38,441 bases of DNA, from IMG/VR virus record IMGVR_UViG_2802429225_000008; one strand, 5' to 3'. Shown here in pieces: positions 4,943 to 15,628 of this stretch. The stretch is from a virus. Taxonomy: Duplodnaviria > Heunggongvirae > Uroviricota > Caudoviricetes. How positions within the stretch are numbered: the first letter of the stretch is position 1; each line of letters starts with the position of its first letter. Under the pieces are notes generated by a model that worked only from the letters and a program-made list of their open reading frames with translations, had not been told where the DNA came from and made no database searches. The position numbers were made by a program, and so were the translations under genes.

Positions 4943-5241
4943 CAAGGGCAGTGCGTATCCATCAATTAAAAATTGCACCTAAGTATTTCAACGCTGTGGT
5001 TGCAGGTCAAAAGACGGCTGAACTTCGTAAAGACGATCGTGGCTATAAAGTTGGTGATGTTCTTTCTCTTTGCGAATGGAAGCATGGCGTATTTACGGGT
5101 AGGGAATGGGCCGCTGTTATCTCTCATGTGCTTCCGGTTAATGACGTCATGTCAGTTTCAGAACAATGGGTGATGCTATCAATTCGCCCATTAACCCCAT
5201 TAGAAGCTTTAGGATATGTTATTGCAGGAGGTGCTGTATGA
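4939..5241 (+). CDS. DUF3850-like (ASCH/PUA-like) protein
   Basis: [44 protein letters not shown]; start ATG 4939 after GGAGG; the gene is bracketed by identical 15-nt junctions (4928-4942 and 5227-5241). Confidence 0.6.
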
Positions 5242-6095
5242 GCACCATCCTGAAATGGGCGGGAAATAAAACCGCCATTATGTCCGAACTGAAAAAACAC
5301 CTTCCTGCTGGCCCGCGACTGGTTGAACCTTTCGCGGGTTCCTGTGCTGTGATGATGGAGACGGATTACCCCAGCTATCTGGTTGCGGATATTAATCCTG
5401 ATTTAATCAACCTCTATAAAAAGGTTGCCGCTGATTGTGAATCGTTTATATCTCGCGCCAGAGTTTTATTTGAGATCGCAAACAGGGAGGTGGCTTATTA
5501 CAACATAAGGCAGGAGTTTAATTACTCAACTGAAATTACTGATTTCATGAAAGCGGTATATTTCCTGTATCTCAATCGTCACGGTTACCGTGGTTTATGT
5601 CGCTATAACAAGAGCGGGCATTTCAACATTCCCTACGGTAATTATAAAAATCCGTATTTCCCTGAAAAAGAAATTCGCGCATTTGCAGAAAAAGCCCAGC
5701 GAGCAATGTTTATCTGCGCCAGCTTTGATGAAACGCTGGCGATGTTGAAGGCGGGGGATGTGGTGTATTGCGATCCGCCGTATGACGGTACGTTTTCCGG
5801 CTATCACACTGATGGTTTCACTGAAGATGACCAGTATCACCTGGCATCCGTTCTTGAACATCGGTCATCAGAAGGACATCCGGTCATTGTTTCTAACAGT
5901 GACACATCCCTGATCCGTTCGCTGTATCGCAATTTTACTCACCACTATATCAAGGTAAAACGCAGCATCGGTGTGGCAGCTGGCGAGGGTAAATCAGCAA
6001 CAGAAATCATTGCTGTTTCCGGGCCGCGCTGCTGGGTGGGATTTGATTATTCGCGTGGCGTGGATAGTTCTGCCGTGTACGGAGTGCGTGCATGA
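5238..6095 (+). CDS. dam: DNA adenine methyltransferase (Dam-like, D12 class)
   Basis: ILKWAGNK N-terminal motif, FAGS motif I and DPPY catalytic motif; start ATG 5238 after GGAGG. Confidence 0.85.
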
Positions 6096-8506
6096 GCCAT
6101 GCTGATATGAACAACTGCAGCGGCTTTAACGAGGCCGCCGCAGCATTCTCATGGAACAGCCCGAAAAAGGCGATTAACCCTTATCTGGACCCGGCGGAAG
6201 TTGCGCCGGTTTCTGCGCTTTCAAACCTGATCACTCTGTACGCTGCCGATAACAAGCAGGAACAACTGCGCCGCGAGGCACTGAGTGATCAGGTCTGGGA
6301 GCGTTATTTCTTTAATGAATCCCGTGATCCTGTCCAGCGCGAAATGGAGCAGGATAAGCTCATTAGCCGGGCAAAGCTGGTGCATGAGCAGCAGCGTTTT
6401 AATCCGGACATGGTCATACTGGCGGACGTTAACGCCCAGCCTTCCCATATCAGCAAGCCGCTGATGCAACGTATTGAATACTTCAGCAGCCTGGGCAGGC
6501 CAAAGGCTTATTCCCGCTATTTGCGTGAGACGATTAAACCATGTCTGGAACGACTGGAGCATGTACGCGACAGCCAGCTATCTGCATCTTTTCGTTTTAT
6601 GGCAAGCCATGAAGGGCTGGACGGCCTGCTGATCTTGCCTGAAATGAGTCAGGATCAGGTGAAGCGCCTGTCTACCCTTGTTGCCGCGCATATGAGCATG
6701 TGCCTTGATGCAGCTTGTGGTGATTTGTATGCCACCGATGACGTTAAGCCAGAAGAAATCCGCAAGACATGGGAAAGGGTGGCGGCGGAAACCCTGCGTC
6801 TGGATGTCATCCCTCCTGCGTTTGAGCAACTCCGCCGGAAAAGAAACCGCCGTAAACCCGTACCCTATGAACTCATTCCGGGTTCGCTGGCGCGTATGTT
6901 GTGCGCCGACTGGTGGTATCGGAAATTATGGAAGATGCGTTGCGAATGGCGGGAAGAGCAGTTGCGTGCTGTTTGCCTGGTCAGCAAAAAAGCATCTCCC
7001 TATGTCAGCTATGAAGCCGTGATGCATAAACGTGAGCAGCGCCGTAAGTCGCTGGAGTTTTTCCGTTCTCATGAACTGGTGAACGAAGACGGCGACACGC
7101 TGGATATGGAGGACGTGGTAAACGCCAGTAGTAGCAACCCGGCGCATCGCCGCAATGAGATGATGGCATGTGTTAAAGGTCTGGAGCTTATCGCGGAAAT
7201 GCGCGGTGACTGCGCCGTTTTCTACACCATCACCTGTCCGTCACGTTTCCATTCCACGCTAAATAACGGCAGGCCCAACCCGACTTGGACAAATGCGACG
7301 GTAAGACAAAGCAGTGATTATCTGGTCGGCATGTTTGCTGCATTTCGTAAGGCGATGTACAAAGCCGGATTGCGCTGGTATGGCGTGCGGGTGGCTGAGC
7401 CGCATCATGACGGTACAGTTCACTGGCACCTGTTGTGTTTTATGCGCAAAAAAGATCGCCGCGCCATTACTGCTTTGTTGCGTAAGTTTGCCATTCGTGA
7501 AGACCGCGAGGAGCTGGGTAATAACACAGGACCACGCTTTAAGTCTGAGCTGATAAACCCGCGCAAAGGTACACCAACAAGCTACATCGCGAAATACATC
7601 AGTAAGAACATTGACGGGCGTGGTCTGGCTGGCGAGATCAGCAAGGAAACGGGTAAATCTCTGCGTGATAACGCTGAATACGTTAATGCCTGGGCGTCTC
7701 TGCATCGTGTTCAGCAATTCCGCTTCTTTGGCATTCCGGGGCGTCAGGCTTACCGTGAACTGCGATTGCTGGCTGGTCAGGCGGCAAGGCAACAGGGTGA
7801 CAAAAAAGCAGGTGCGCCGGTACTGGATAACCCGCGCCTTGATGCCATTCTGGCTGCAGCTGATGCTGGTTGCTTTGCCACCTACATCATGAAGCAGGGC
7901 GGCGTACTGGTTCCCCGTAAATATCACCTCATCAGAACCGCTTATGAAATCAACGAAGAGCCGACCGCCTATGGCGATCACGGTATTCGTATTTATGGCA
8001 TCTGGTCACCCATTGCAGAGGGCAAGATCTGCACTCATGCAGTGAAGTGGAAAATGGTCCGTAAAGCCGTTGACGTTCAGGAGGCGGCAGCCGACCAGGG
8101 CGCTTGCGCCCCTTGGACTCGTGGCAATAACTGTCCCCTTGCTGAAAATTTGAACCAACAAGGGAAAGACAAATCAGCTGATGGGGATATCAGAACGGAC
8201 ATTACCCGCATGGATGACAAGGAGTTGCACGAATACCTGCACAGTATGAGCAAAAAAGAGCGCCGGGAACTGGCTGCAAGGTTACGCCTGGTGAAACCGA
8301 AACGGCGTAAAGACTACAAACAGCGAATTACAGACCATCAGCGACAGCAGCTCGTCTATGAACTGAAGTCCAGAGGATTTGATGGCAGCGAGAAAGAGGT
8401 CTATTTACTCCTTCGTGGCGGCAGTATTCCGTCAGGAGCAGGCCTGCGTATCTTCTATCGGAACCAGCGTTTGCAGGAAGATGATAAGTGGCGGAACCTG
8501 TATTAA
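6092..8506 (+). CDS. A: Replication initiation endonuclease (P2 gpA / 186 RepA family, rolling circle)
   Basis: 804-aa protein with the His-hydrophobic-His type block ([11 protein letters not shown]) and key-tyrosine region ([11 protein letters not shown]) typical of P2 A. Confidence 0.85.
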
Positions 8507-9304: not shown

Positions 9305-9505
9305 GGGATACGAGCGCGCGCTGAAAAGGTTTAGCTAAATTTTTGTCGATAGGTGGTTTTAGTTGTTATACAAAAGTGTCACTGGTTTTGTTTTGAGCAT
9401 TTGTGGTGCTAAAAATATTTTTTTTGGTTCAAAATTACCTTAAAAAGGTTTTTTTGGTGTATGATTGTTTGAAAAGTGGTTCGGTTTTGCCATAAGGGTG
9501 GTTAG

Positions 9506-10588
9506 ATGATAAACGTTACAAACGAAATGCTCATTGATGTTGTCAGTGATGCTCTTACCGGGAAGAGGGAAAGTCTCCTCATGCGGTTGCGGATTATGGC
9601 AAAAAAACTAAAAAAAGAATCTCCTGAATTAGCGGGTAAATTAGAAGATTTACTTATTAATACAGGTGGCGCAATTGCAGTCGAAAGGGCTAATCCAGTT
9701 GTTCCTAAAATAACACCTGTTGATGCGGATACAAGACAAAAGCTGCTAGTTGAAACATATCCTGTGGTCATTGATGTTGAACCTGTTTGGCCAACAAAAA
9801 CTGATGTTCAACTGAATCGATTTGTGGCTGAGTGGGAAATGAAAGAACGCCTTTATAAAGAAGGGTTGCATCCGTCCAAATCTCTTCTTATGGGAGGACC
9901 ACCCGGTGTGGGGAAGACTTTGGCTGCAAAGTGGCTCGCTTTTAAACTCGATATGCCATTGTTAACATTAGATCTCGCAAGTGTAATGAGTAGCTACTTG
10001 GGGAAAACGGGTAATAATATTAAGGCAGTCCTCAATTATGCTTCGTCATTCCCTTGTGTACTGCTTCTTGACGAATTTGATGCGATTGCTAAAAAAAGGG
10101 ATGATGCAACAGATGTTGGAGAACTAAAAAGATTAGTTACAGTATTATTGCAAGCAATTGATGAATGGCCAAATACGTCTGTTCTTATAGCAGCAACTAA
10201 CCATGCGGAGCTGCTTGATCCTGCTGCATGGAGAAGATTCGATCGAGTTATTGATTTTGAATATCCAACACAAGACCTAATGAGAAGATATCTCTGTTCT
10301 AAAAATATTGGAGATAGCTTATCGTACTATATTGCTACAAAACTCGAAAAAGTTTCATATGCAGTTCTTGAGAGAGCTATAAATCAAGCTAAAAGAAATG
10401 CCATTATAGAAGATATTCCTTTAAGTTCAGCTTTAATTGATGAGTTGTTAGATGGCGTGTCACTTGATGATGTTATAAAAAACATGTCAAACAACAATGT
10501 ATCACAAAGAAAAATCGCTTTAGATTTGGGGATTTCAAGGTCACAAGTACGTAAGGTTTTGACGGTTGAGGATGAAGACAATGAATGA
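9506..10588 (+). CDS. AAA+ ATPase (IetA-like) of an ATPase/subtilase pair
   Basis: Walker A GPPGVGKT, Walker B LLLDEFD, sensor-1 ATNH, then AAWRRFD; AT-rich by eye; 8-nt overlap with the downstream protease gene. Confidence 0.8.
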   Translation: MINVTNEMLIDVVSDALTGKRESLLMRLRIMAKKLKKESPELAGKLEDLLINTGGAIAVERANPVVPKITPVDADTRQKLLVETYPVVIDVEPVWPTKTDVQLNRFVAEWEMKERLYKEGLHPSKSLLMGGPPGVGKTLAAKWLAFKLDMPLLTLDLASVMSSYLGKTGNNIKAVLNYASSFPCVLLLDEFDAIAKKRDDATDVGELKRLVTVLLQAIDEWPNTSVLIAATNHAELLDPAAWRRFDRVIDFEYPTQDLMRRYLCSKNIGDSLSYYIATKLEKVSYAVLERAINQAKRNAIIEDIPLSSALIDELLDGVSLDDVIKNMSNNNVSQRKIALDLGISRSQVRKVLTVEDEDNE

Positions 10589-11690
10589 TAAAAATATGCT
10601 TCTTGGCTATGGTGAAACACTAACTAACCCTGTTAAACTTAACAGAGGTGGAGGTGAAAAGAATAAACCTTACTCTTATTCAGAAAATAAACCAGTGATA
10701 TCTGCTCAACTGGAAGAGTTGATTGAGGAAATTAATACCCTTCCATTGTTAGCAATGCCTGAAGGTAAGGCTGTAGCAAAATTTGTTTTGCATCCGGCAT
10801 TCTTAGCAAAAAGTTATTTTCCAGTAAGTCTTTTTGAGCGATTTTCCCTAGAAAGCATAGGCAGTAAGGCTGTAAAAGTAAAACCTAGAAAAGATATTAA
10901 AAAAAGAGGGCGAAAAGAGGAATACACTACAGCGTGTATTTATGTTTCTGGCAAAAAAGAAAGTTTTCAATCATTCTTAGACTCTGTAAATCAAGATACC
11001 CTAACGAAAGGGCAGCAAAATGATTTTGTCACCTTAGAAAATATTTCAATACTGGAAGTTTCAGATAAAGTAAAAACGATTAATAGCAATGAAGTTATGA
11101 GTATTGAGGTCGCCTTACATACTCCTGATACAATTTCCTCTATTGTCGATAGTTTTGAAGTTTTTGCTTCGCAAAATGGTGCTGTTATAGATAAGGCAAG
11201 AAGTATAAAGGTTAAGGGGCTAACCTTTATGCCTATTAAGGCTAGTAAAGATGTAGCTTTAAAAGTTGCAGAGTTTTCATTTCTCAGGACTTTGAGAGAA
11301 CTTCCTGAATTAAGGCTAAGTGAGCCTGTTATATCACGTTCTGTGATTCAAACATCTAACCTTAGTTTACCATCTGAAGGAGCGGTAAACCCACACATAA
11401 AGGTTGCCATATTCGATGGTGGATTGGGGATCGATGATTTCAATCCTTGGGTAACAGAGTACACTTTCAACGGTAATGCTAGTACTAATGCAAAACTTCT
11501 TTCTCATGGACAGGATGTCACCTCTACTGTGTTATTTGGTGTTCTTGGCTCTGAAACGGAAAAATTAAGTGTTCCTTATTGTAATATTGACCATTATCGT
11601 GTACTGGATTCTAATGTTAATAACTCAGATGTCGATCTTTTTGACGTTCTGATCCGTATTAAAAGTGTATTAGAACAAAAAAAAATATGA
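10581..11690 (+). CDS. S8 subtilisin-like serine protease (IetS-like), N-terminal part; interrupted by a frameshift at the A9 run 11677-11685
   Basis: Contains the catalytic Asp motif (VAIFDGG) and His motif (SHGQDVTS); ends ...LEQKKI* directly after a run of nine A. Start ATG 10581 preferred (GAGGA 9 nt upstream). Confidence 0.7.
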   Translation: MNDKNMLLGYGETLTNPVKLNRGGGEKNKPYSYSENKPVISAQLEELIEEINTLPLLAMPEGKAVAKFVLHPAFLAKSYFPVSLFERFSLESIGSKAVKVKPRKDIKKRGRKEEYTTACIYVSGKKESFQSFLDSVNQDTLTKGQQNDFVTLENISILEVSDKVKTINSNEVMSIEVALHTPDTISSIVDSFEVFASQNGAVIDKARSIKVKGLTFMPIKASKDVALKVAEFSFLRTLRELPELRLSEPVISRSVIQTSNLSLPSEGAVNPHIKVAIFDGGLGIDDFNPWVTEYTFNGNASTNAKLLSHGQDVTSTVLFGVLGSETEKLSVPYCNIDHYRVLDSNVNNSDVDLFDVLIRIKSVLEQKKI

Positions 11691-11739
11691 TTATATCAAT
11701 CTGAGCTTAGGACCTAGATTACCTGTTGATGACGATGAC

Positions 11740-12774
11740 GTGCATGTGTGGACCTCAACTCTTGAGGAGATACTTGCATCAGGAGAAACACTTTGTACTG
11801 TCGCGGTTGGAAATGATGGTCAGCTGCCTGCCAAGTTAAATCGAATTCAACCACCTGCTGATTTAGTTAATGGTCTGTCAGTAGGTGCAGCAACCTCTTT
11901 ATCTGATAGTTGGGAAAGATGTTCTTACAGTTGTATTGGTCCTGGACGAAGCCCTGGCTTTGTGAAGCCTGATGGAGTTGCATTTGGAGGACATTCTGAT
12001 GAGCCATTCCAGGTATACAGCCCTATGGTTAATGGTCTTGCCCGCACTGCGGGGACTAGCTTTTCAGCTCCATTAGTCCTGAGGCAAGCAATCGCGTTAA
12101 GTGCTTCTCTAAATTACAACATTACACCACTTACGGCTAAAGCTCTGCTTATACATCATGCGGAGAGCAATAATATCAATCGTGCTGAAGTTGGTTGGGG
12201 ACGATTTCCTCATGATCTTAGTGAAGTAATATTTTGTGATGATGATGAAGTTAAAGTTATATATCAAGGTACTTTAAAACCATCACAACACATGCGAGCA
12301 CCTATTCCGTTTCCAGATGTACCTATGCGTGGATGTGTAAATTTAAGAGCGACATTCTGCTTTTCCAGTCCTGTAGATGCGGAACATCCTTTGAATTATA
12401 CAAGAAGCGGTCTAGAAGTAACCATGAGAAAAGGTGTTTCAGATAGTTCCGGGTTAACGTTTCCTCTTTTTAATCTAAAAAATGTTTATGCAGATGAAAA
12501 TGAGCAACGTGTTGATGCACATAAATGGGAGACTACGTTAAGAAGTGAACACAAATTTAAACCGAATGAGCTGACAAACCCATGCTTTGATATTATCTAC
12601 TATGGTAGAGACTGTGGTATGCCTATTGATGTTGACGAGTTAGAAGAACTACCATATGTTCTTGTCGTGACTTTATCTGCTGAAGAAATGCCGGATTTAT
12701 ATAACCTAATTAGGCAGAAATATCAAACCTTACAGCCTATCCAAGTTCAACAGCAAATTATGTTACGTACTTAA
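11740..12774 (+). CDS. S8 subtilisin-like serine protease (IetS-like), C-terminal part in the +1 frame
   Basis: The frame is open from 11674 and reads KKKYDYINLSLGP...CTVAVGNDG...GTSFSAP, i.e. the subtilase INLSLG block, oxyanion-hole Asn and catalytic Ser. Continuous with the upstream ORF if one A is removed. Confidence 0.7.
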   Translation: MHVWTSTLEEILASGETLCTVAVGNDGQLPAKLNRIQPPADLVNGLSVGAATSLSDSWERCSYSCIGPGRSPGFVKPDGVAFGGHSDEPFQVYSPMVNGLARTAGTSFSAPLVLRQAIALSASLNYNITPLTAKALLIHHAESNNINRAEVGWGRFPHDLSEVIFCDDDEVKVIYQGTLKPSQHMRAPIPFPDVPMRGCVNLRATFCFSSPVDAEHPLNYTRSGLEVTMRKGVSDSSGLTFPLFNLKNVYADENEQRVDAHKWETTLRSEHKFKPNELTNPCFDIIYYGRDCGMPIDVDELEELPYVLVVTLSAEEMPDLYNLIRQKYQTLQPIQVQQQIMLRT

Positions 12775-12781
12775 CAATGTG

Positions 12782-12804
12782 GAGGGGTTCCCCCTCCTTT
12801 ATTA
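12782..12804 (+). terminator. Hairpin terminator (ggagggg-ttc-cccctcc followed by a T-rich run) between convergent genes
   Basis: 7-bp perfect stem followed by TTTATT, between the protease gene stop (12774) and the portal gene stop (12813). Confidence 0.5.
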
Positions 12805-12812
12805 AGCTTTAT

Positions 12813-13865
12813 CTATGTTGATTGTGGGTCATCGTTTATTAAGTTATATTTTTCAAAATGGATAATATTAATTCCTAACCATTCATTAAATTCCTGTAAT
12901 CGTTTTTGTAAAGGCATTAATTCATTTCGAACAAACACTCGACTCGCCTTCTCTACATCTCCAAATCCTCCAACATTACTTGGCATAATCCCCATCATTT
13001 GCGGCGGCACACGGTGTGCCGCCATCATGTCGTCTCGGCTCACGTTCTTGATGTTCAGAAATTCATCCTTCGCTGCGACTTCTGACAGCGGGATGATCTG
13101 AAGCCCGTCCTTTTTGCCGTTAGGCGAGTACATAAACAGGTTGCGGAAGTTGCCTGGACCTTTGGCGCTTTTCATCGCGTTGCGGAGGTTGTTCACATCT
13201 TCCTGGTTCTGCGCGGCGTCGGTCATATACATGATGAAGCCAGCATGACTGCCGTTAATGTAATACTTTCGACGGAACAGCGTGGCGGACTCATTGAGCA
13301 GGGCGGACGGAATGGCAGAAAGATAGCCGGGCAAGCCGTAGATCTCCTGGTTAATGTCCGGTTCCATCAGATGAAAAATGCTGCCTTTCGTGAACTGATA
13401 TGGCTGGGTTGTCATACCGTATTGCACAAACCAGTAGGTATCCAGGTCTAACCCGCGTCGGGTGTATTTTGCCAGCGCAGGCTCAAGGGCGATAACTTCA
13501 CCGAAGCGGTTCGTGCGTTTCTCCAGGTAGGCGTTACCAAAAACCAGATAGTCCTGCACAAAACGCGAAAAAGCCTGCTGGCTGAGCAGCGGGTGAGGGA
13601 TGTAGGTGCTGGTCAAAATGTTGCATTTCACCGCAATCGGTGAGCTGTGATGCACGGCGGCGCGGAAGGTTCGTGCCAGTCCGTCAAAGCTGACGGGCGG
13701 CTCATACCAGCGATCCATCTGTACGCATTCCACATAGTCCAGCAGTTCGCGGCGGTCCAGAACAGGAACGGGATCACCGAAGCTGAATGCTTCGGCTGAA
13801 GTCTGGCTTTTATGCTGGTTCTGGTTCGTCGACGCAGCGCGGTTCTTCTTACTCTTTCCCATCAA
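12813..13865 (-). CDS. Q: Portal protein (P2 gpQ family)
   Basis: 350-aa ORF resembling P2 Q; first gene of the packaging block, adjacent to and co-oriented with the large terminase. Confidence 0.85.
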   Translation of the reverse strand: MMGKSKKNRAASTNQNQHKSQTSAEAFSFGDPVPVLDRRELLDYVECVQMDRWYEPPVSFDGLARTFRAAVHHSSPIAVKCNILTSTYIPHPLLSQQAFSRFVQDYLVFGNAYLEKRTNRFGEVIALEPALAKYTRRGLDLDTYWFVQYGMTTQPYQFTKGSIFHLMEPDINQEIYGLPGYLSAIPSALLNESATLFRRKYYINGSHAGFIMYMTDAAQNQEDVNNLRNAMKSAKGPGNFRNLFMYSPNGKKDGLQIIPLSEVAAKDEFLNIKNVSRDDMMAAHRVPPQMMGIMPSNVGGFGDVEKASRVFVRNELMPLQKRLQEFNEWLGINIIHFEKYNLINDDPQST

Positions 13866-15628
13866 AAAATCTCCACAATATTGCTGGCATTGGCGGACTC
13901 GCCCTGCAGCGGTTCGTTAAACAGTGCGTGCATTGTTGCCCAGGCCAGATCGGCATGGCTGGCTTCTTCGCTGCGGCTGGCTTCATAGGTCGGGCGGTTG
14001 CCGCTGGCGGTGGTGGCGCGACGGATTGCCATGAATGACTGCGCAATGTCGGTGTGTCCGGCGTCAAATTCCAGGCGGCGGTGACTGATAATGTCGTAGG
14101 CCTTGAGTACCAGGGCGTTTTTAACGTTGGGGTTGTAGACAAACTCCCGGACGGCAGGAAAAAACGCTTTCACGTTCTCGTAAACCCCGTGACCGACGCC
14201 GGTCGAGTCGATGCCGATATAGGTCACGTTATACTGTTCGGTCAGTTTTTTGATGGCGTCAGCCTGGGCGCGGAAGTCCATTCCGCGCCACTGGTGACGC
14301 TCAAGAATGCGGAACTTACCGCCCGGCACGGCTGGCGGTGCCACCACCACGCATCCGGCGCTGTCGCCGTTCTGCGTACCTTTTGCCGGGTCATAACCGA
14401 TCCACACTTCGCGCCAGCCAAACGGGCGCAGGGCCAGTGCATGAAAGTCGGTCCAGACTTCCCAACTGTCCACCATGCACGCCTGCAGCTCGCTGAGTGG
14501 GAACACGGACGCGAGATCGTCCACGAACTCACACATCAGCAGGTTCTGGTATTCGTCCGGGCTGTATTCCATGCGCAACTGGTCAAGGTCGAACAGGTTA
14601 CAGCCGCCGCGCACCGCATCTTCTACGGTGACTATCTGGCGGTATTGCCCGTCTGCGCACAGCAGGCCGGGGGCCAGATTGCTGTGGGACAGGTCGATGT
14701 CCACCTTGTCGGCTTTGTTGCGTCCACGGTTGAACAGCGCACCGGACCAGAACGGATAAGCACTGTGGGTCAGGCTGGATGGCGTGGAAAAATAGGTTTG
14801 TCGCCATTTTTTGTGAATAGCCATACCGGAAGCCACTTTGCGCAGCTCCTGGAATTTCGGTATCCAGAAATATTCATCCAGATACAGGTTGCCGTGGTAA
14901 CTCTGGGCAGTGCGGGCATTGGTGCCGAGGAAATACAGTGTGGCCCCGTTGGGAAGCACCATCGGATCGCCTTTCAGCTCCACTTCCACTTCTTTGGCGA
15001 AGTCGATGATGTACTGCTTAAAGACGTGCGCCTGTGCCTTACTGGCAGAAAGGAAAATCTGGTTACGTCCGGTTAGCAGGGCGTCAATCAGGGCTTCACG
15101 GGCAAAATAGAAGGTCGCGCCGATCTGGCGTGACTTCAGCAGGTTGCGGATGCGGTTGGTTTTTCCGGCTTCCCACCAGTGACGCTGGTAGTTGAACATG
15201 GAGGAATGGAAGATTTCTTCCAGCTTCTCAATCTGTTCATCGGTGAAAACATTCTTTTCAGGCTGACGGCGCGGGCCTTTGTTGCGGTTGGCGACGTTAG
15301 GGTTTAAGTCGGCTTCGTTGCCGCCATTGTTAAACTTGCCGATCCGCGCGTGGCGCTCAGACTGGCGCGCCAGCAGGTCAATCTCTTTGAAATCTTTCCC
15401 TTCTTTGTGCTCCTTCATAATGAGCTGGCAGTAGCGTGCGGCAGTGGTGAGCTGCATCTGATCCAGCGGCCCATAGTCACCCCACTTGTCGCGTTTTTTC
15501 CAGCTGTGAACGGTTGCAACTTTCTCGCCCAGCATTTCAGCAATGCGGGCTACGCGGTATCCCTGAAAGTACAGCAGCATGGCCTGCCGACGGGGATCGA
15601 GATCTGCGGGTGTCAGTGTGGTGTTCAT
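13862..15628 (-). CDS. P: Terminase large (ATPase) subunit (P2 gpP family)
   Basis: 588-aa ORF resembling P2 P; overlaps the Q start by 4 nt. Confidence 0.9.
   Translation of the reverse strand: MNTTLTPADLDPRRQAMLLYFQGYRVARIAEMLGEKVATVHSWKKRDKWGDYGPLDQMQLTTAARYCQLIMKEHKEGKDFKEIDLLARQSERHARIGKFNNGGNEADLNPNVANRNKGPRRQPEKNVFTDEQIEKLEEIFHSSMFNYQRHWWEAGKTNRIRNLLKSRQIGATFYFAREALIDALLTGRNQIFLSASKAQAHVFKQYIIDFAKEVEVELKGDPMVLPNGATLYFLGTNARTAQSYHGNLYLDEYFWIPKFQELRKVASGMAIHKKWRQTYFSTPSSLTHSAYPFWSGALFNRGRNKADKVDIDLSHSNLAPGLLCADGQYRQIVTVEDAVRGGCNLFDLDQLRMEYSPDEYQNLLMCEFVDDLASVFPLSELQACMVDSWEVWTDFHALALRPFGWREVWIGYDPAKGTQNGDSAGCVVVAPPAVPGGKFRILERHQWRGMDFRAQADAIKKLTEQYNVTYIGIDSTGVGHGVYENVKAFFPAVREFVYNPNVKNALVLKAYDIISHRRLEFDAGHTDIAQSFMAIRRATTASGNRPTYEASRSEEASHADLAWATMHALFNEPLQGESANASNIVEIF

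What the first reader, a model, noticed from the sequence alone, without database searches (positions are those of the whole stretch)
11671..11742. Subtilase gene split by a frameshift in an A9 homopolymer
The protease reading frame ends ...LEQKKI* at a TGA (11688-11690) directly after nine consecutive A (11677-11685). The +1 frame is open from 11674 and continues KKKYDYINLSLGP..., which is the expected continuation of a subtilase (INLSLG block, then the oxyanion Asn and catalytic Ser). Removing one A gives a continuous ...EQKKYDYINLSLG... protein of about 730 aa. This is either an inactivating mutation in the defense gene, a slipped-strand on/off switch, a sequencing error in a homopolymer, or a translational frameshift site.
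Basis: seen in the sequence. Interest (0 to 1): 0.7.

Follow-up and report, generated by a model that had tools for sequence, protein, structure and literature searches.

The report
Frameshifted phage-defence protease gene in prophage
A prophage-carried anti-phage protease gene (ietS of the Iet defence system) is broken by one extra A in a run that is eight A's long in almost all other copies; this is a real, inherited knock-out at a mutation-prone spot and not a sequencing error or a programmed recoding signal, so it is an ordinary pseudogene.

Summary
An A9 run (11677-11685) is followed by TGA (11688-11690), the +1 frame continues KKYDYINLSLGP, and deleting one A gives a 730-aa S8 peptidase. 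The gene is ietS. It is paired with an intact ietA AAA+ ATPase (9506-10588) in the gpA-gpQ defence hotspot of a P2-like prophage. The host is a cryptic-clade Escherichia.

All 11 near-identical loci in complete E. coli genomes, the Salmonella allele and 2 metagenome contigs carry A8 and an intact gene. Intact proteins sit on about 780 contigs. A9 is confined to one haplotype but recurs base-for-base in at least two independent sequencing runs, so it is a real mutation.

A separate haplotype carries A7, so the tract is a recurrent indel hotspot. The same operon is also knocked out elsewhere by a nonsense codon in ietA and by IS or other-element deletions, which indicates plain loss of function.

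The Lys-Lys pair and the A run are not conserved in the family. No recoding signals are present, and no homologue is split. The break separates Asp279/His309 from Asn411/Ser493.

Verdict: an ordinary homopolymer frameshift pseudogene. It could revert, and it may be slightly leaky through slippage. Low interest.

The parts
10581..12774 (+). ietS pseudogene (S8/subtilase protease of the Iet defence system). It reads as 730 codons if one A is removed.
   Evidence: PADLOC IetS PDLC02197 E=4.9e-48 and Pfam Peptidase_S8 E=2.9e-17 on the repaired protein. 99.9% DNA identity to intact 2193-nt genes in 11 E. coli genomes.
11677..11685 (+). A9 homopolymer. It is A8 (CAA AAA AAA = Gln366-Lys367-Lys368) in intact alleles, so there is one extra A.
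   Evidence: A8 in 11/11 E. coli genomes, in Salmonella L020 and in 2 metagenome contigs. A7 in L015, L021 and L023.
10581..11690 (+). 5' fragment: a 369-aa product ending ...LEQKKI*. It holds the N-terminal domain plus catalytic Asp279 (11415-11417) and His309 (11505-11507). The stop is TGA 11688-11690.
   Evidence: The exact product is P0122 / WP_236942056.1, found on 3-5 contigs. Invariant D279 and H309 are from alignment.
11686..12774 (+). 3' fragment in the +1 frame. It holds the INLSLG substrate-binding strand, oxyanion Asn411 (11812-11814), nucleophile Ser493 (12058-12060) and the C-terminal domain. Its first possible starts are GTG 11740 and GTG 11746, neither with an RBS.
   Evidence: Annotated elsewhere as 342- or 344-aa 'S8 family peptidase' fragments P0121 and P0123.
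9506..10588 (+). ietA, AAA+ ATPase partner gene. It is intact (360 aa) and its stop overlaps the ietS start by 8 nt.
   Evidence: PADLOC IetA PDLC02196 E=6.7e-84; Pfam AAA E=5.4e-30. Identical to WP_001513123.1 loci.
6092..8506 (+). P2 gpA-type replication endonuclease: left border of the prophage defence hotspot.
   Evidence: Annotated as 'replication endonuclease' in L001. Phage_GPA Pfam. Hotspot described in PMC9122126.
12813..13865 (-). P2 gpQ-type portal protein: right border of the hotspot.
   Evidence: Annotated as 'phage portal protein'. Phage_portal Pfam.

Best explanation
ietS, the subtilase component of a two-gene Iet (IetA ATPase + IetS protease) anti-phage system, is carried as cargo in the gpA-gpQ hotspot of a P2-like prophage. 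It has been inactivated by a genuine +1 insertion (A8 to A9), most plausibly by replication slippage. The insertion lies in an incidental Gln-Lys-Lys-coding A run.

Translation stops two codons after the run. The 369-aa product keeps Asp279 and His309 but lacks the substrate-binding strand, oxyanion Asn411 and nucleophile Ser493. The downstream 3' part has no ribosome-binding site. The protease, and hence the system, is therefore expected to be off in this lineage.

The allele is inherited within one haplotype. The same tract has independently contracted to A7 in another haplotype, so it is the most mutable site of the gene.

Shown here: the lesion, its reality, its derived state, its recurrence, the absence of recoding signals, and the position of the break relative to the catalytic residues.

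Inferred: loss of defence function; replication slippage as the cause; possible reversion to A8; and possibly a small amount of full-length protein, made either by RNA-polymerase slippage or by a +1 ribosome slip on AAA-A before the rare AUA codon.
For: All close comparators are A8 and intact. This covers 11/11 complete E. coli genomes at 99.7-99.9% identity, Salmonella L020 and 2/2 metagenome contigs. Intact proteins sit on 618 + 99 + 21 + 9 + 8 + 7 + 6... contigs.

More than 1000 homologues are nearly all single ORFs of 723-738 aa.

A9 is reproducible. L012/L017 (GCA_002965135.1), L013 (SRR3989727) and L014 (ERR13763643, one SNP at 14498) all carry A9. A9 is linked to two private substitutions, 11134 (S185I) and 11612 (synonymous).

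An independent A7 allele lies on a different haplotype in L015, L021 (a complete 5.5-Mb genome) and L023 (a metagenome). P0135 is on 7 contigs.

There are other unrelated knock-outs of the same operon: ietA R247* in EC102, an IS-associated deletion in L024, and replacement of the 5' part in L022.

The EQKK loop is the variable part of an otherwise conserved region. The A run is broken by CAG in an 88% homologue.

There is no stimulatory RNA structure (z=+0.81), no SD-like motif upstream of the tract, and no RBS before GTG 11740/11746.

The break lies between His309 and the INLSLG strand, Asn411 and Ser493.
Against: No expression or phenotype data exist, so loss of defence is inferred and not shown.

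A9 is the run length at which bacterial RNA-polymerase slippage becomes appreciable (PMC1088944). Some full-length protein may therefore be made, and the gene might be hypomorphic and not null.

The existence of A7, A8 and A9 alleles (and possibly A6) is also what a contingency locus would show.

SRR3989727 may be the read set behind GCA_002965135.1. Independent confirmation of A9 therefore rests mainly on ERR13763643 and the other contigs counted.
Confidence: 0.82

Rival explanations
1. Contingency locus (phase variation). The A tract is maintained as a slipped-strand switch that turns the prophage's Iet defence on (A8) and off (A7, A9) at high frequency. This would let lineages escape the system's cost or autoimmunity and regain it under phage attack.
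For: Three, possibly four, tract lengths exist in otherwise 99.7% or more identical genes: A7, A8, A9, plus one weak A6 contig. Both expansion and contraction occurred, on different haplotypes. Two of about six independent knock-outs of a 3.3-kb operon map to these 9 bases. Reversion by a 1-nt change is possible.
Against: Each frameshift allele is fixed on a single haplotype. It is stable enough to be linked to private SNPs and to be found in several isolates. A7 and A9 were absent from five other protein haplotypes, including the 99-contig Salmonella one. About 98% of contigs are A8. The tract is short for a switch in a mismatch-repair-proficient enterobacterium (my knowledge: typical switches use longer runs and show mixed populations). 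It is not conserved in the family: QK, TK, NK and KH occur at the site, and CAG breaks the run in an 88% homologue. The operon is also lost by nonsense and IS lesions, which are irreversible.
Confidence: 0.08
2. 'Pseudo-pseudogene'. The A9 allele still yields useful amounts of full-length IetS. One route is RNA-polymerase slippage producing A8 or A11 transcripts. The other is a +1 ribosomal slip of tRNA-Lys on AAA-A, stalled before the rare AUA codon and UGA. The allele would then be a low-expression variant and not a null.
For: Runs of 9 A are the threshold for appreciable transcriptional slippage in many bacteria, and disrupted genes with such runs have been called 'pseudo pseudogenes' (PMC1088944). 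An A11 run rescues about 20% of Citrobacter tssM (PMC4256274). Either route would give the exact wild-type sequence ...EQKKYDY.... The 0-frame codon after the run is AUA, followed by UGA.
Against: E. coli RNA polymerase slips poorly on poly(A) in the sense strand. It gave no detectable one-base-deletion rescue on the poly(A) runs tested, which went up to A8 (PMC6260861). The alternative, a +2 insertion, adds a Lys to a loop whose length is invariant in 38 homologues. No stimulatory element is present. A9 is not conserved in any other lineage, so there is no sign of selection for it.
Confidence: 0.08
3. Sequencing or assembly artefact: the real genome has A8.
For: Homopolymers are error-prone. 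One related assembly, CP164120.1 (L016), clearly has homopolymer miscalls: 1-nt deletions in a T8 and an A7 run and an 'A7' call at this tract.
Against: A9 is identical in an NCBI assembly and in two Logan re-assemblies of different runs, one of which differs by a SNP and so is another isolate. The window shows no other indel against 11 reference loci over 3.45 kb. The allele is annotated in RefSeq as separate proteins in multiple 'unclassified Escherichia' genomes.
Confidence: 0.02
4. The two ORFs are a functional split protease whose halves reassemble.
For: Both fragments remain open, and gene callers annotate them as separate proteins.
Against: No homologue among more than 1000 is split. 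The cut runs through the catalytic domain between His309 and the substrate-binding strand, Asn411 and Ser493. The 3' ORF has no RBS and only weak GTG starts 50 nt or more downstream. The fragments are open simply because the mutation is recent.
Confidence: 0.01

Closest known systems
Iet (IetA-IetS) anti-phage defence system (Gao et al. 2020; model names from PADLOC)
   Same: Same two-gene architecture: an AAA+ ATPase immediately upstream of, and overlapping, an S8 subtilase of about 730 aa. Both match IetA and IetS profiles strongly. An E. coli ietAS operon (from ECOR52) has been cloned and tested against phages (bioRxiv 10.1101/2022.08.21.504612).
   Different: Here the protease gene is frameshifted, so the system is predicted to be non-functional. 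The molecular mechanism of Iet itself is not established in anything I could read.
Homopolymer frameshift pseudogenes, or 'pseudo pseudogenes', at 9A/9T runs (Baranov et al. 2005, PMC1088944)
   Same: An orthologue is intact in other strains, one extra A in an A run disrupts the ORF, and the run length is 9. Their Figure 5 shows exactly this situation for an E. coli gene.
   Different: Restoring frame here needs a 1-nt deletion or a 2-nt insertion in the mRNA. Insertions are the favoured slippage class, and the E. coli polymerase is poor on poly(A) (PMC6260861). Rescue is untested and likely small.
Citrobacter rodentium tssM1 A11 transcriptional frameshifting (Gueguen et al. 2014, PMC4256274)
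   Same: A poly-A run lies just upstream of a premature stop in an enterobacterial gene whose homologues are single ORFs.
   Different: In tssM1 the run is longer (11 A), about 20% frameshifting was measured, both products are needed, and the arrangement is conserved in Yersinia. Here A9 is confined to one lineage and nothing suggests that both products are used.
Phase-variable contingency loci (slipped-strand mispairing in Neisseria, Haemophilus, Campylobacter, Helicobacter)
   Same: Length polymorphism of a coding homopolymer toggles the reading frame. The A7, A8 and A9 alleles were observed.
   Different: The tract is short and not conserved, the off states are fixed per haplotype, and there is no evidence of within-strain heterogeneity. 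High-frequency switching, the defining feature, could not be tested.
P2 old/tin hotspot cargo (Rousset et al. 2022, PMC9122126)
   Same: The system sits between gpA (replication) and gpQ (portal) of a P2-like prophage. This is the documented defence hotspot.
   Different: Iet is not mentioned in that paper's main text: a search for 'Iet' returned 0 occurrences. Here the cargo is decayed.

Membership tests
Iet defence system (IetA + IetS) | AAA+ ATPase gene matching IetA profiles | tested here: met
   9506-10588: PADLOC IetA PDLC02196 E=6.7e-84 over 7-355 of 360 aa; Pfam AAA E=5.4e-30.
Iet defence system (IetA + IetS) | Adjacent S8 subtilase gene matching IetS profiles, same strand and operon | tested here: met
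   The repaired 10581-12774 product matches IetS PDLC02197 E=4.9e-48 (25-617) and Pfam Peptidase_S8 E=2.9e-17. Its start overlaps the ietA stop by 8 nt.
Iet defence system (IetA + IetS) | Intact IetS ORF with a complete catalytic Asp/His/Asn/Ser set on one polypeptide | tested here: not met
   The frameshift at 11685 puts D279 and H309 on one ORF and N411 and S493 on another. The locus is an Iet system by descent but a pseudogenised one.
Iet defence system (IetA + IetS) | Confers phage resistance | not testable with these tools
   This needs plaque assays with the A8 and A9 alleles.
Programmed ribosomal frameshift / programmed transcriptional slippage site | Shift site and two-ORF arrangement conserved among homologues | tested here: not met
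   All comparators outside the one haplotype are in-frame A8. Homologues are single ORFs. KK is not conserved.
Programmed ribosomal frameshift / programmed transcriptional slippage site | Stimulatory element (downstream structure or upstream SD-like sequence) | tested here: not met
   The downstream 90 nt fold at -13.6 kcal/mol, z=+0.81 versus shuffles. There is no SD-like motif upstream of the tract.
Phase-variable contingency locus | Repeat-length polymorphism that toggles the frame among closely related strains | tested here: met
   A7 (L015, L021, L023), A8 (majority) and A9 (window, L012-L014), with one weak A6 contig.
Phase-variable contingency locus | Recurrent switching in many lineages, and the tract conserved by selection | tested here: not met
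   There is one event each for A7 and A9, each on a single haplotype. Both are absent from five other haplotypes. The tract is not conserved across the family.
Phase-variable contingency locus | High switching rate with mixed tract lengths within a clonal population | not testable with these tools
   This needs read-level data or fluctuation assays.
Subtilase (MEROPS S8 / Pfam PF00082) | Asp-His-Ser triad in subtilisin order, plus the oxyanion Asn | tested here: met
   Invariant D279, H309, N411 and S493 in a 38-sequence alignment. Alignment to subtilisin E 6pak_A covers the Asp, His, INMSLG and GNEG blocks.

The most novel reading that the evidence does not exclude
The A7/A8/A9 tract could work as a reversible population-level switch, or the A9 allele could be a deliberately leaky, slippage-dependent low-expression state, for a prophage-borne Iet defence system. 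Either would let the prophage or host silence a costly or self-toxic protease and recover it by a single-base slip under phage attack.
Probability: 0.1. Interest if true: 0.5.

Novelty: already known. Interest (0 to 1): 0.15.

Why it matters
The main value is practical. Defence-system finders will score this genome either as Iet-positive or as carrying two odd ORFs, but the protease is broken, so phage-susceptibility predictions for this lineage should treat Iet as off.

The finding also gives a small, clean example of how prophage defence cargo decays. One 3.3-kb operon is lost independently by two homopolymer indels, a nonsense codon and IS or other-element deletions, and a third of those events fall on 9 bases. 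The tract is an obvious place to look if anyone wants to test whether defence genes are reversibly silenced.

It does not reveal a new mechanism.

Tried and rejected
- **Phage GenBank collection.** A megablast of ietAS found nothing.
- **P0135 look-up.** I reached those loci instead through the 249-aa C-terminal fragment that the window also encodes.
- **Naming the host.** A 50-mer from the ybjL flank found nothing in the species-representative genomes. The host is therefore only placed as a cryptic-clade or 'unclassified' Escherichia, based on 90.7% flank identity to 5420 E. coli genomes and on the RefSeq names.
- **Tract pattern scans.** The pattern found no hit in species representatives and only two A8 hits in metagenomes.
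- **Other tract variants.** Exact look-ups of in-frame A5 and A11 products, of A10 products, and of A7/A9 products on five other haplotypes were all negative.
- **CP164120.1 (L016).** I rejected it as evidence for an A7 allele on the window's haplotype, because the same 4 kb has 1-nt deletions in two other homopolymers.
- **Selection test.** I considered a dN/dS test of relaxed selection after the frameshift. With only two private substitutions, one non-synonymous, it has no power.
- **Literature.** The first search for 'IetS/IetA' was swamped by unrelated words. Wagner et al. 1990 (PMC331007) is not held.
- **Structure prediction.** Not run, because the sequence alignment to subtilisin E already places the break.
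Full report
**1. The observation**

The window reads ...GTA TTA GAA CAA AAA AAA ATA TGA.... Nine A's occupy 11677-11685 and the TGA is at 11688-11690.

The upstream ORF (TTG 10566, or the ATG 10581 used in RefSeq annotations of orthologues) ends ...SVLEQKKI*. The +1 frame is open from 11674 and continues KKYDYINLSLGPRLPVDDDD... to TAA 12772-12774. Deleting one A yields a 730-aa protein.

This is the only homopolymer of 9 or more bases in the window. The ietAS segment is 38% GC against 50% for the rest of the window. On composition alone, 0.2-0.4 runs of 8 or more A/T are expected there. A long A run is therefore not surprising; the extra base is what matters.

**2. What the gene is**

The repaired protein matches PADLOC IetS (PDLC02197, E=4.9e-48) and Pfam Peptidase_S8 (E=2.9e-17). 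The gene immediately upstream (9506-10588, overlapping by 8 nt) matches IetA (PDLC02196, E=6.7e-84) and Pfam AAA. This is an Iet (ATPase + subtilase) anti-phage system.

It lies between a P2 gpA-type replication gene (6092-8506) with a DinI-like gene, and the divergently oriented portal (12813-13865) and terminase (13862-15628) genes. That interval is the old/tin position, described as a defence hotspot of P2-like prophages (PMC9122126).

The prophage also has an integrase, a CI repressor, a Dam-type methyltransferase and a full set of long late-gene ORFs. On this coarse check it is not generally degraded.

The chromosomal flank (ybjL-ybjM-grxA) is only 90.7% identical to each of 5420 E. coli genomes. 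RefSeq names the window's exact truncated products as 'unclassified Escherichia'. The host is therefore a cryptic-clade Escherichia. The ietAS cargo, in contrast, is 99.7-99.9% identical to E. coli copies, which implies recent horizontal spread of the prophage.

**3. Ancestral state**

Megablast of 9400-12850 found 11 of 5426 complete E. coli genomes, all at 99.7% identity or better. All 11 carry A8 and an annotated intact 2193-nt 'S8 family peptidase', which is WP_001513122.1 in nine of them.

Across 3451 bases the only indel between the window and any of these is the extra A. The window also has two private substitutions: 11134 (Ser185Ile) and 11612 (synonymous).

The Salmonella allele (L020) and two metagenome contigs found with a tract-length-agnostic pattern are also A8.

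Contig counts for intact proteins of this 90% cluster:

| Protein | Contigs |
|---|---|
| WP_001513122.1 | 618 |
| Salmonella representative | 99 |
| Other intact variants | 21, 9, 8, 7, 6 and fewer |

Beyond the cluster, more than 1000 homologues are almost all single ORFs of 723-738 aa. A8 and an intact gene is the ancestral and overwhelmingly common state.

**4. Real mutation or artefact**

The exact 369-aa N-fragment and the 342- and 344-aa C-fragments of the window exist in public collections. Loci carrying them were fetched and compared:

| Locus | Source | Comparison with the window |
|---|---|---|
| L012/L017 | GCA_002965135.1 | 100% identical over 7.1 kb; probably the window's own genome or clone |
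| L013 | Logan re-assembly of SRR3989727 | 100% identical |
| L014 | Logan re-assembly of ERR13763643 | one SNP, in the terminase gene; a different isolate |

All three carry A9. SRR3989727 may be the read set behind the NCBI assembly, so the firmest independent replicate is ERR13763643. A one-off assembly error is excluded, and a systematic error is very unlikely.

**5. The tract is a recurrent indel site**

Loci reached through the C-terminal fragments revealed A7 alleles. L015 (GCA_048093515.1), L021 (OZ038621.1, a complete 5.5-Mb chromosome) and L023 (an ENA metagenome assembly) share a haplotype different from the window's. It has G11134 and C11612 plus seven other SNPs, and its nearest A8 relative is L009. 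Their 373-aa N-fragment (P0135...EQKNMIISI*) is on 7 contigs. This is an independent contraction event.

One short Logan contig carries the predicted A6 product (P0137), which is weak evidence.

CP164120.1 (L016) shows 'A7' on the window's own haplotype. It also has 1-nt deletions in a T8 and an A7 run within the same 4 kb, so I treat its homopolymer calls as unreliable.

Exact look-ups found none of the following:
- A9 on the common haplotype
- A7 or A9 on five other haplotypes, including the Salmonella one
- A10 products
- in-frame A5 or A11 products

In total there are two well-supported independent events, each fixed on one haplotype. Together they account for about 12 contigs (5 with A9 and 7 with A7) against about 780 intact ones, roughly 1.5%.

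**6. The operon is also lost in other ways**

- E. coli EC102 (L004) has ietA Arg247 changed to a stop codon.
- In L024, an IS transposase replaces 10571-11981.
- In L022, everything upstream of 11899 is replaced next to another integrase.
- Pairs of 'partial' 142-aa and 588-aa products at contig ends in 3-5 draft genomes suggest an insertion inside the gene.

These irreversible lesions argue that Iet is simply dispensable or costly in many hosts. The A tract is its most mutable site, not a dedicated switch.

**7. No sign of programmed recoding**

In a 38-sequence alignment, the four residues EQKK are the variable stretch between two highly conserved blocks, DLFDVLIRIK-VL and YDYINLSLGP. QK, TK, NK, KH, QH and DY all occur there, while the loop length is invariant.

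At DNA level the run is CAA AAA AAA. An 88% homologue has CAG AAA AAA (A6). A 72% homologue keeps A8 and elsewhere tolerates an in-frame A9.

Signals around the tract:
- The 90 nt downstream fold no better than shuffles (z=+0.81).
- There is no SD-like motif upstream of the tract.
- The first in-frame starts of the 3' ORF (GTG 11740 and 11746) have no ribosome-binding site.

**8. Consequence for the protein**

The invariant residues of the family are Asp279, His309, Asn411 and Ser493. Alignment to subtilisin E (6pak_A) places the break just before the INLSLG strand, which corresponds to subtilisin's INMSLG substrate-binding strand.

The 369-aa product therefore has Asp and His but lacks the substrate-binding strand, the oxyanion Asn, the nucleophile Ser and the whole C-terminal domain. 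Loss of protease activity, and with it Iet defence, is the expected outcome. This is inference and has not been measured.

**9. Possible leakiness**

Restoring frame needs either an mRNA with A8 or A11, or a +1 ribosomal slip.

The literature read here says three relevant things:
- Runs of 9 A/T are where slippage becomes appreciable in many bacteria, and such disrupted genes may be 'pseudo pseudogenes' (PMC1088944).
- An A11 run gives about 20% rescue in Citrobacter tssM (PMC4256274).
- E. coli RNA polymerase is weak on poly(A) and gave no detectable one-base-deletion rescue on the runs tested, up to A8 (PMC6260861).

A +1 slip of tRNA-Lys from AAA (11682-84) to AAA (11683-85) ahead of the rare AUA codon would give the exact wild-type sequence. 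This is my own inference from general knowledge of +1 shifting at slow codons, and it is unsupported by any signal here. I expect at most a few percent of full-length protein.

**10. Verdict**

This is a genuine, lineage-specific +1 frameshift at a replication-slippage hotspot. It pseudogenises the protease of a known defence system in a known prophage hotspot.

It is a well-known kind of event ('already known'), useful for annotation and for phage-susceptibility prediction, and otherwise of low interest. The residual novel reading is a reversible or leaky silencing of a defence system. The A7/A8/A9 polymorphism keeps that reading alive, but I give it about 10%.

Noticed in passing
window 36100-38441 (ybjL-ybjM-grxA flank) versus 9400-12850: The host flank is only 90.7% identical to all 5420 E. 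coli genomes, which indicates a cryptic-clade Escherichia. The prophage's ietAS cargo is 99.7-99.9% identical to copies in E. coli and about 99% at protein level to Salmonella. This implies very recent cross-species spread of this P2-like prophage.
   Followed up: partly
L004 (NZ_CP196706.1, E. coli EC102), equivalent to window 10244: The partner gene ietA carries a C>T change turning Arg247 into a stop codon. RefSeq annotates it as two ORFs. This is an independent knock-out of the same defence operon.
   Followed up: yes
L024 (GCA_028314905.1), L022 (Logan SRR20664511), L005/L008 (IS421 downstream of ietS): Mobile elements cluster at this hotspot. In L024 an IS transposase replaces window-equivalent 10571-11981. 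In L022 everything upstream of 11899 is replaced next to a different integrase. In two complete genomes IS421 sits between ietS and the portal gene without disrupting either.
   Followed up: partly
L016 (CP164120.1, 4.7-Mb 'E. coli' chromosome): This locus carries the window's private ietAS haplotype, but the prophage is a remnant. Sequence jumps from window-equivalent 13221 (inside the portal gene) to about 34873 (gpD/ogr), and the right side is only 93% identical. The assembly has 1-nt deletions in three homopolymers within 4 kb, which suggests uncorrected long-read errors. It is absent from the RefSeq complete-genome set searched.
   Followed up: partly
window 26817-28028 (-): A 403-aa Acyl_transf_3 / O-antigen-acetylase-like gene (31% GC) sits on the opposite strand just after the tail-fibre and tail-fibre-assembly genes. 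It is probably a serotype-converting moron in the second P2 cargo site.
   Followed up: partly
window 21621-22373 (-): A 250-aa ORF on the opposite strand sits inside the late (tail/baseplate) gene block. It is 30% GC and has no Pfam, PHROG or PADLOC match. It is a candidate unknown cargo gene at the position where P2 carries orf30 (that position is from memory).
   Followed up: partly
window 5166-6095 (+): A Dam-like D12-class N6-adenine methyltransferase lies just upstream of gpA. Its best PADLOC match is 'orphan methyltransferase' (E=3e-111). It is a likely anti-restriction or epigenetic cargo of the prophage.
   Followed up: no
P0129 (142 aa) and P0130 (588 aa), cluster members from 3-5 E. 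coli draft genomes: These complementary 'partial' IetS products end and start at residue 142/143 at contig ends. This suggests a repeated element, probably an IS, inserted inside ietS in another lineage.
   Followed up: no
L019 (ENA ERZ27276675 k141_90276): A 72%-identical ietAS pair sits in a different place in a P2-like element, directly after gpU and gpD and not between gpA and gpQ. Its ietS has an in-frame A9 run near the 5' end as well as the A8 at the homologous site.
   Followed up: no
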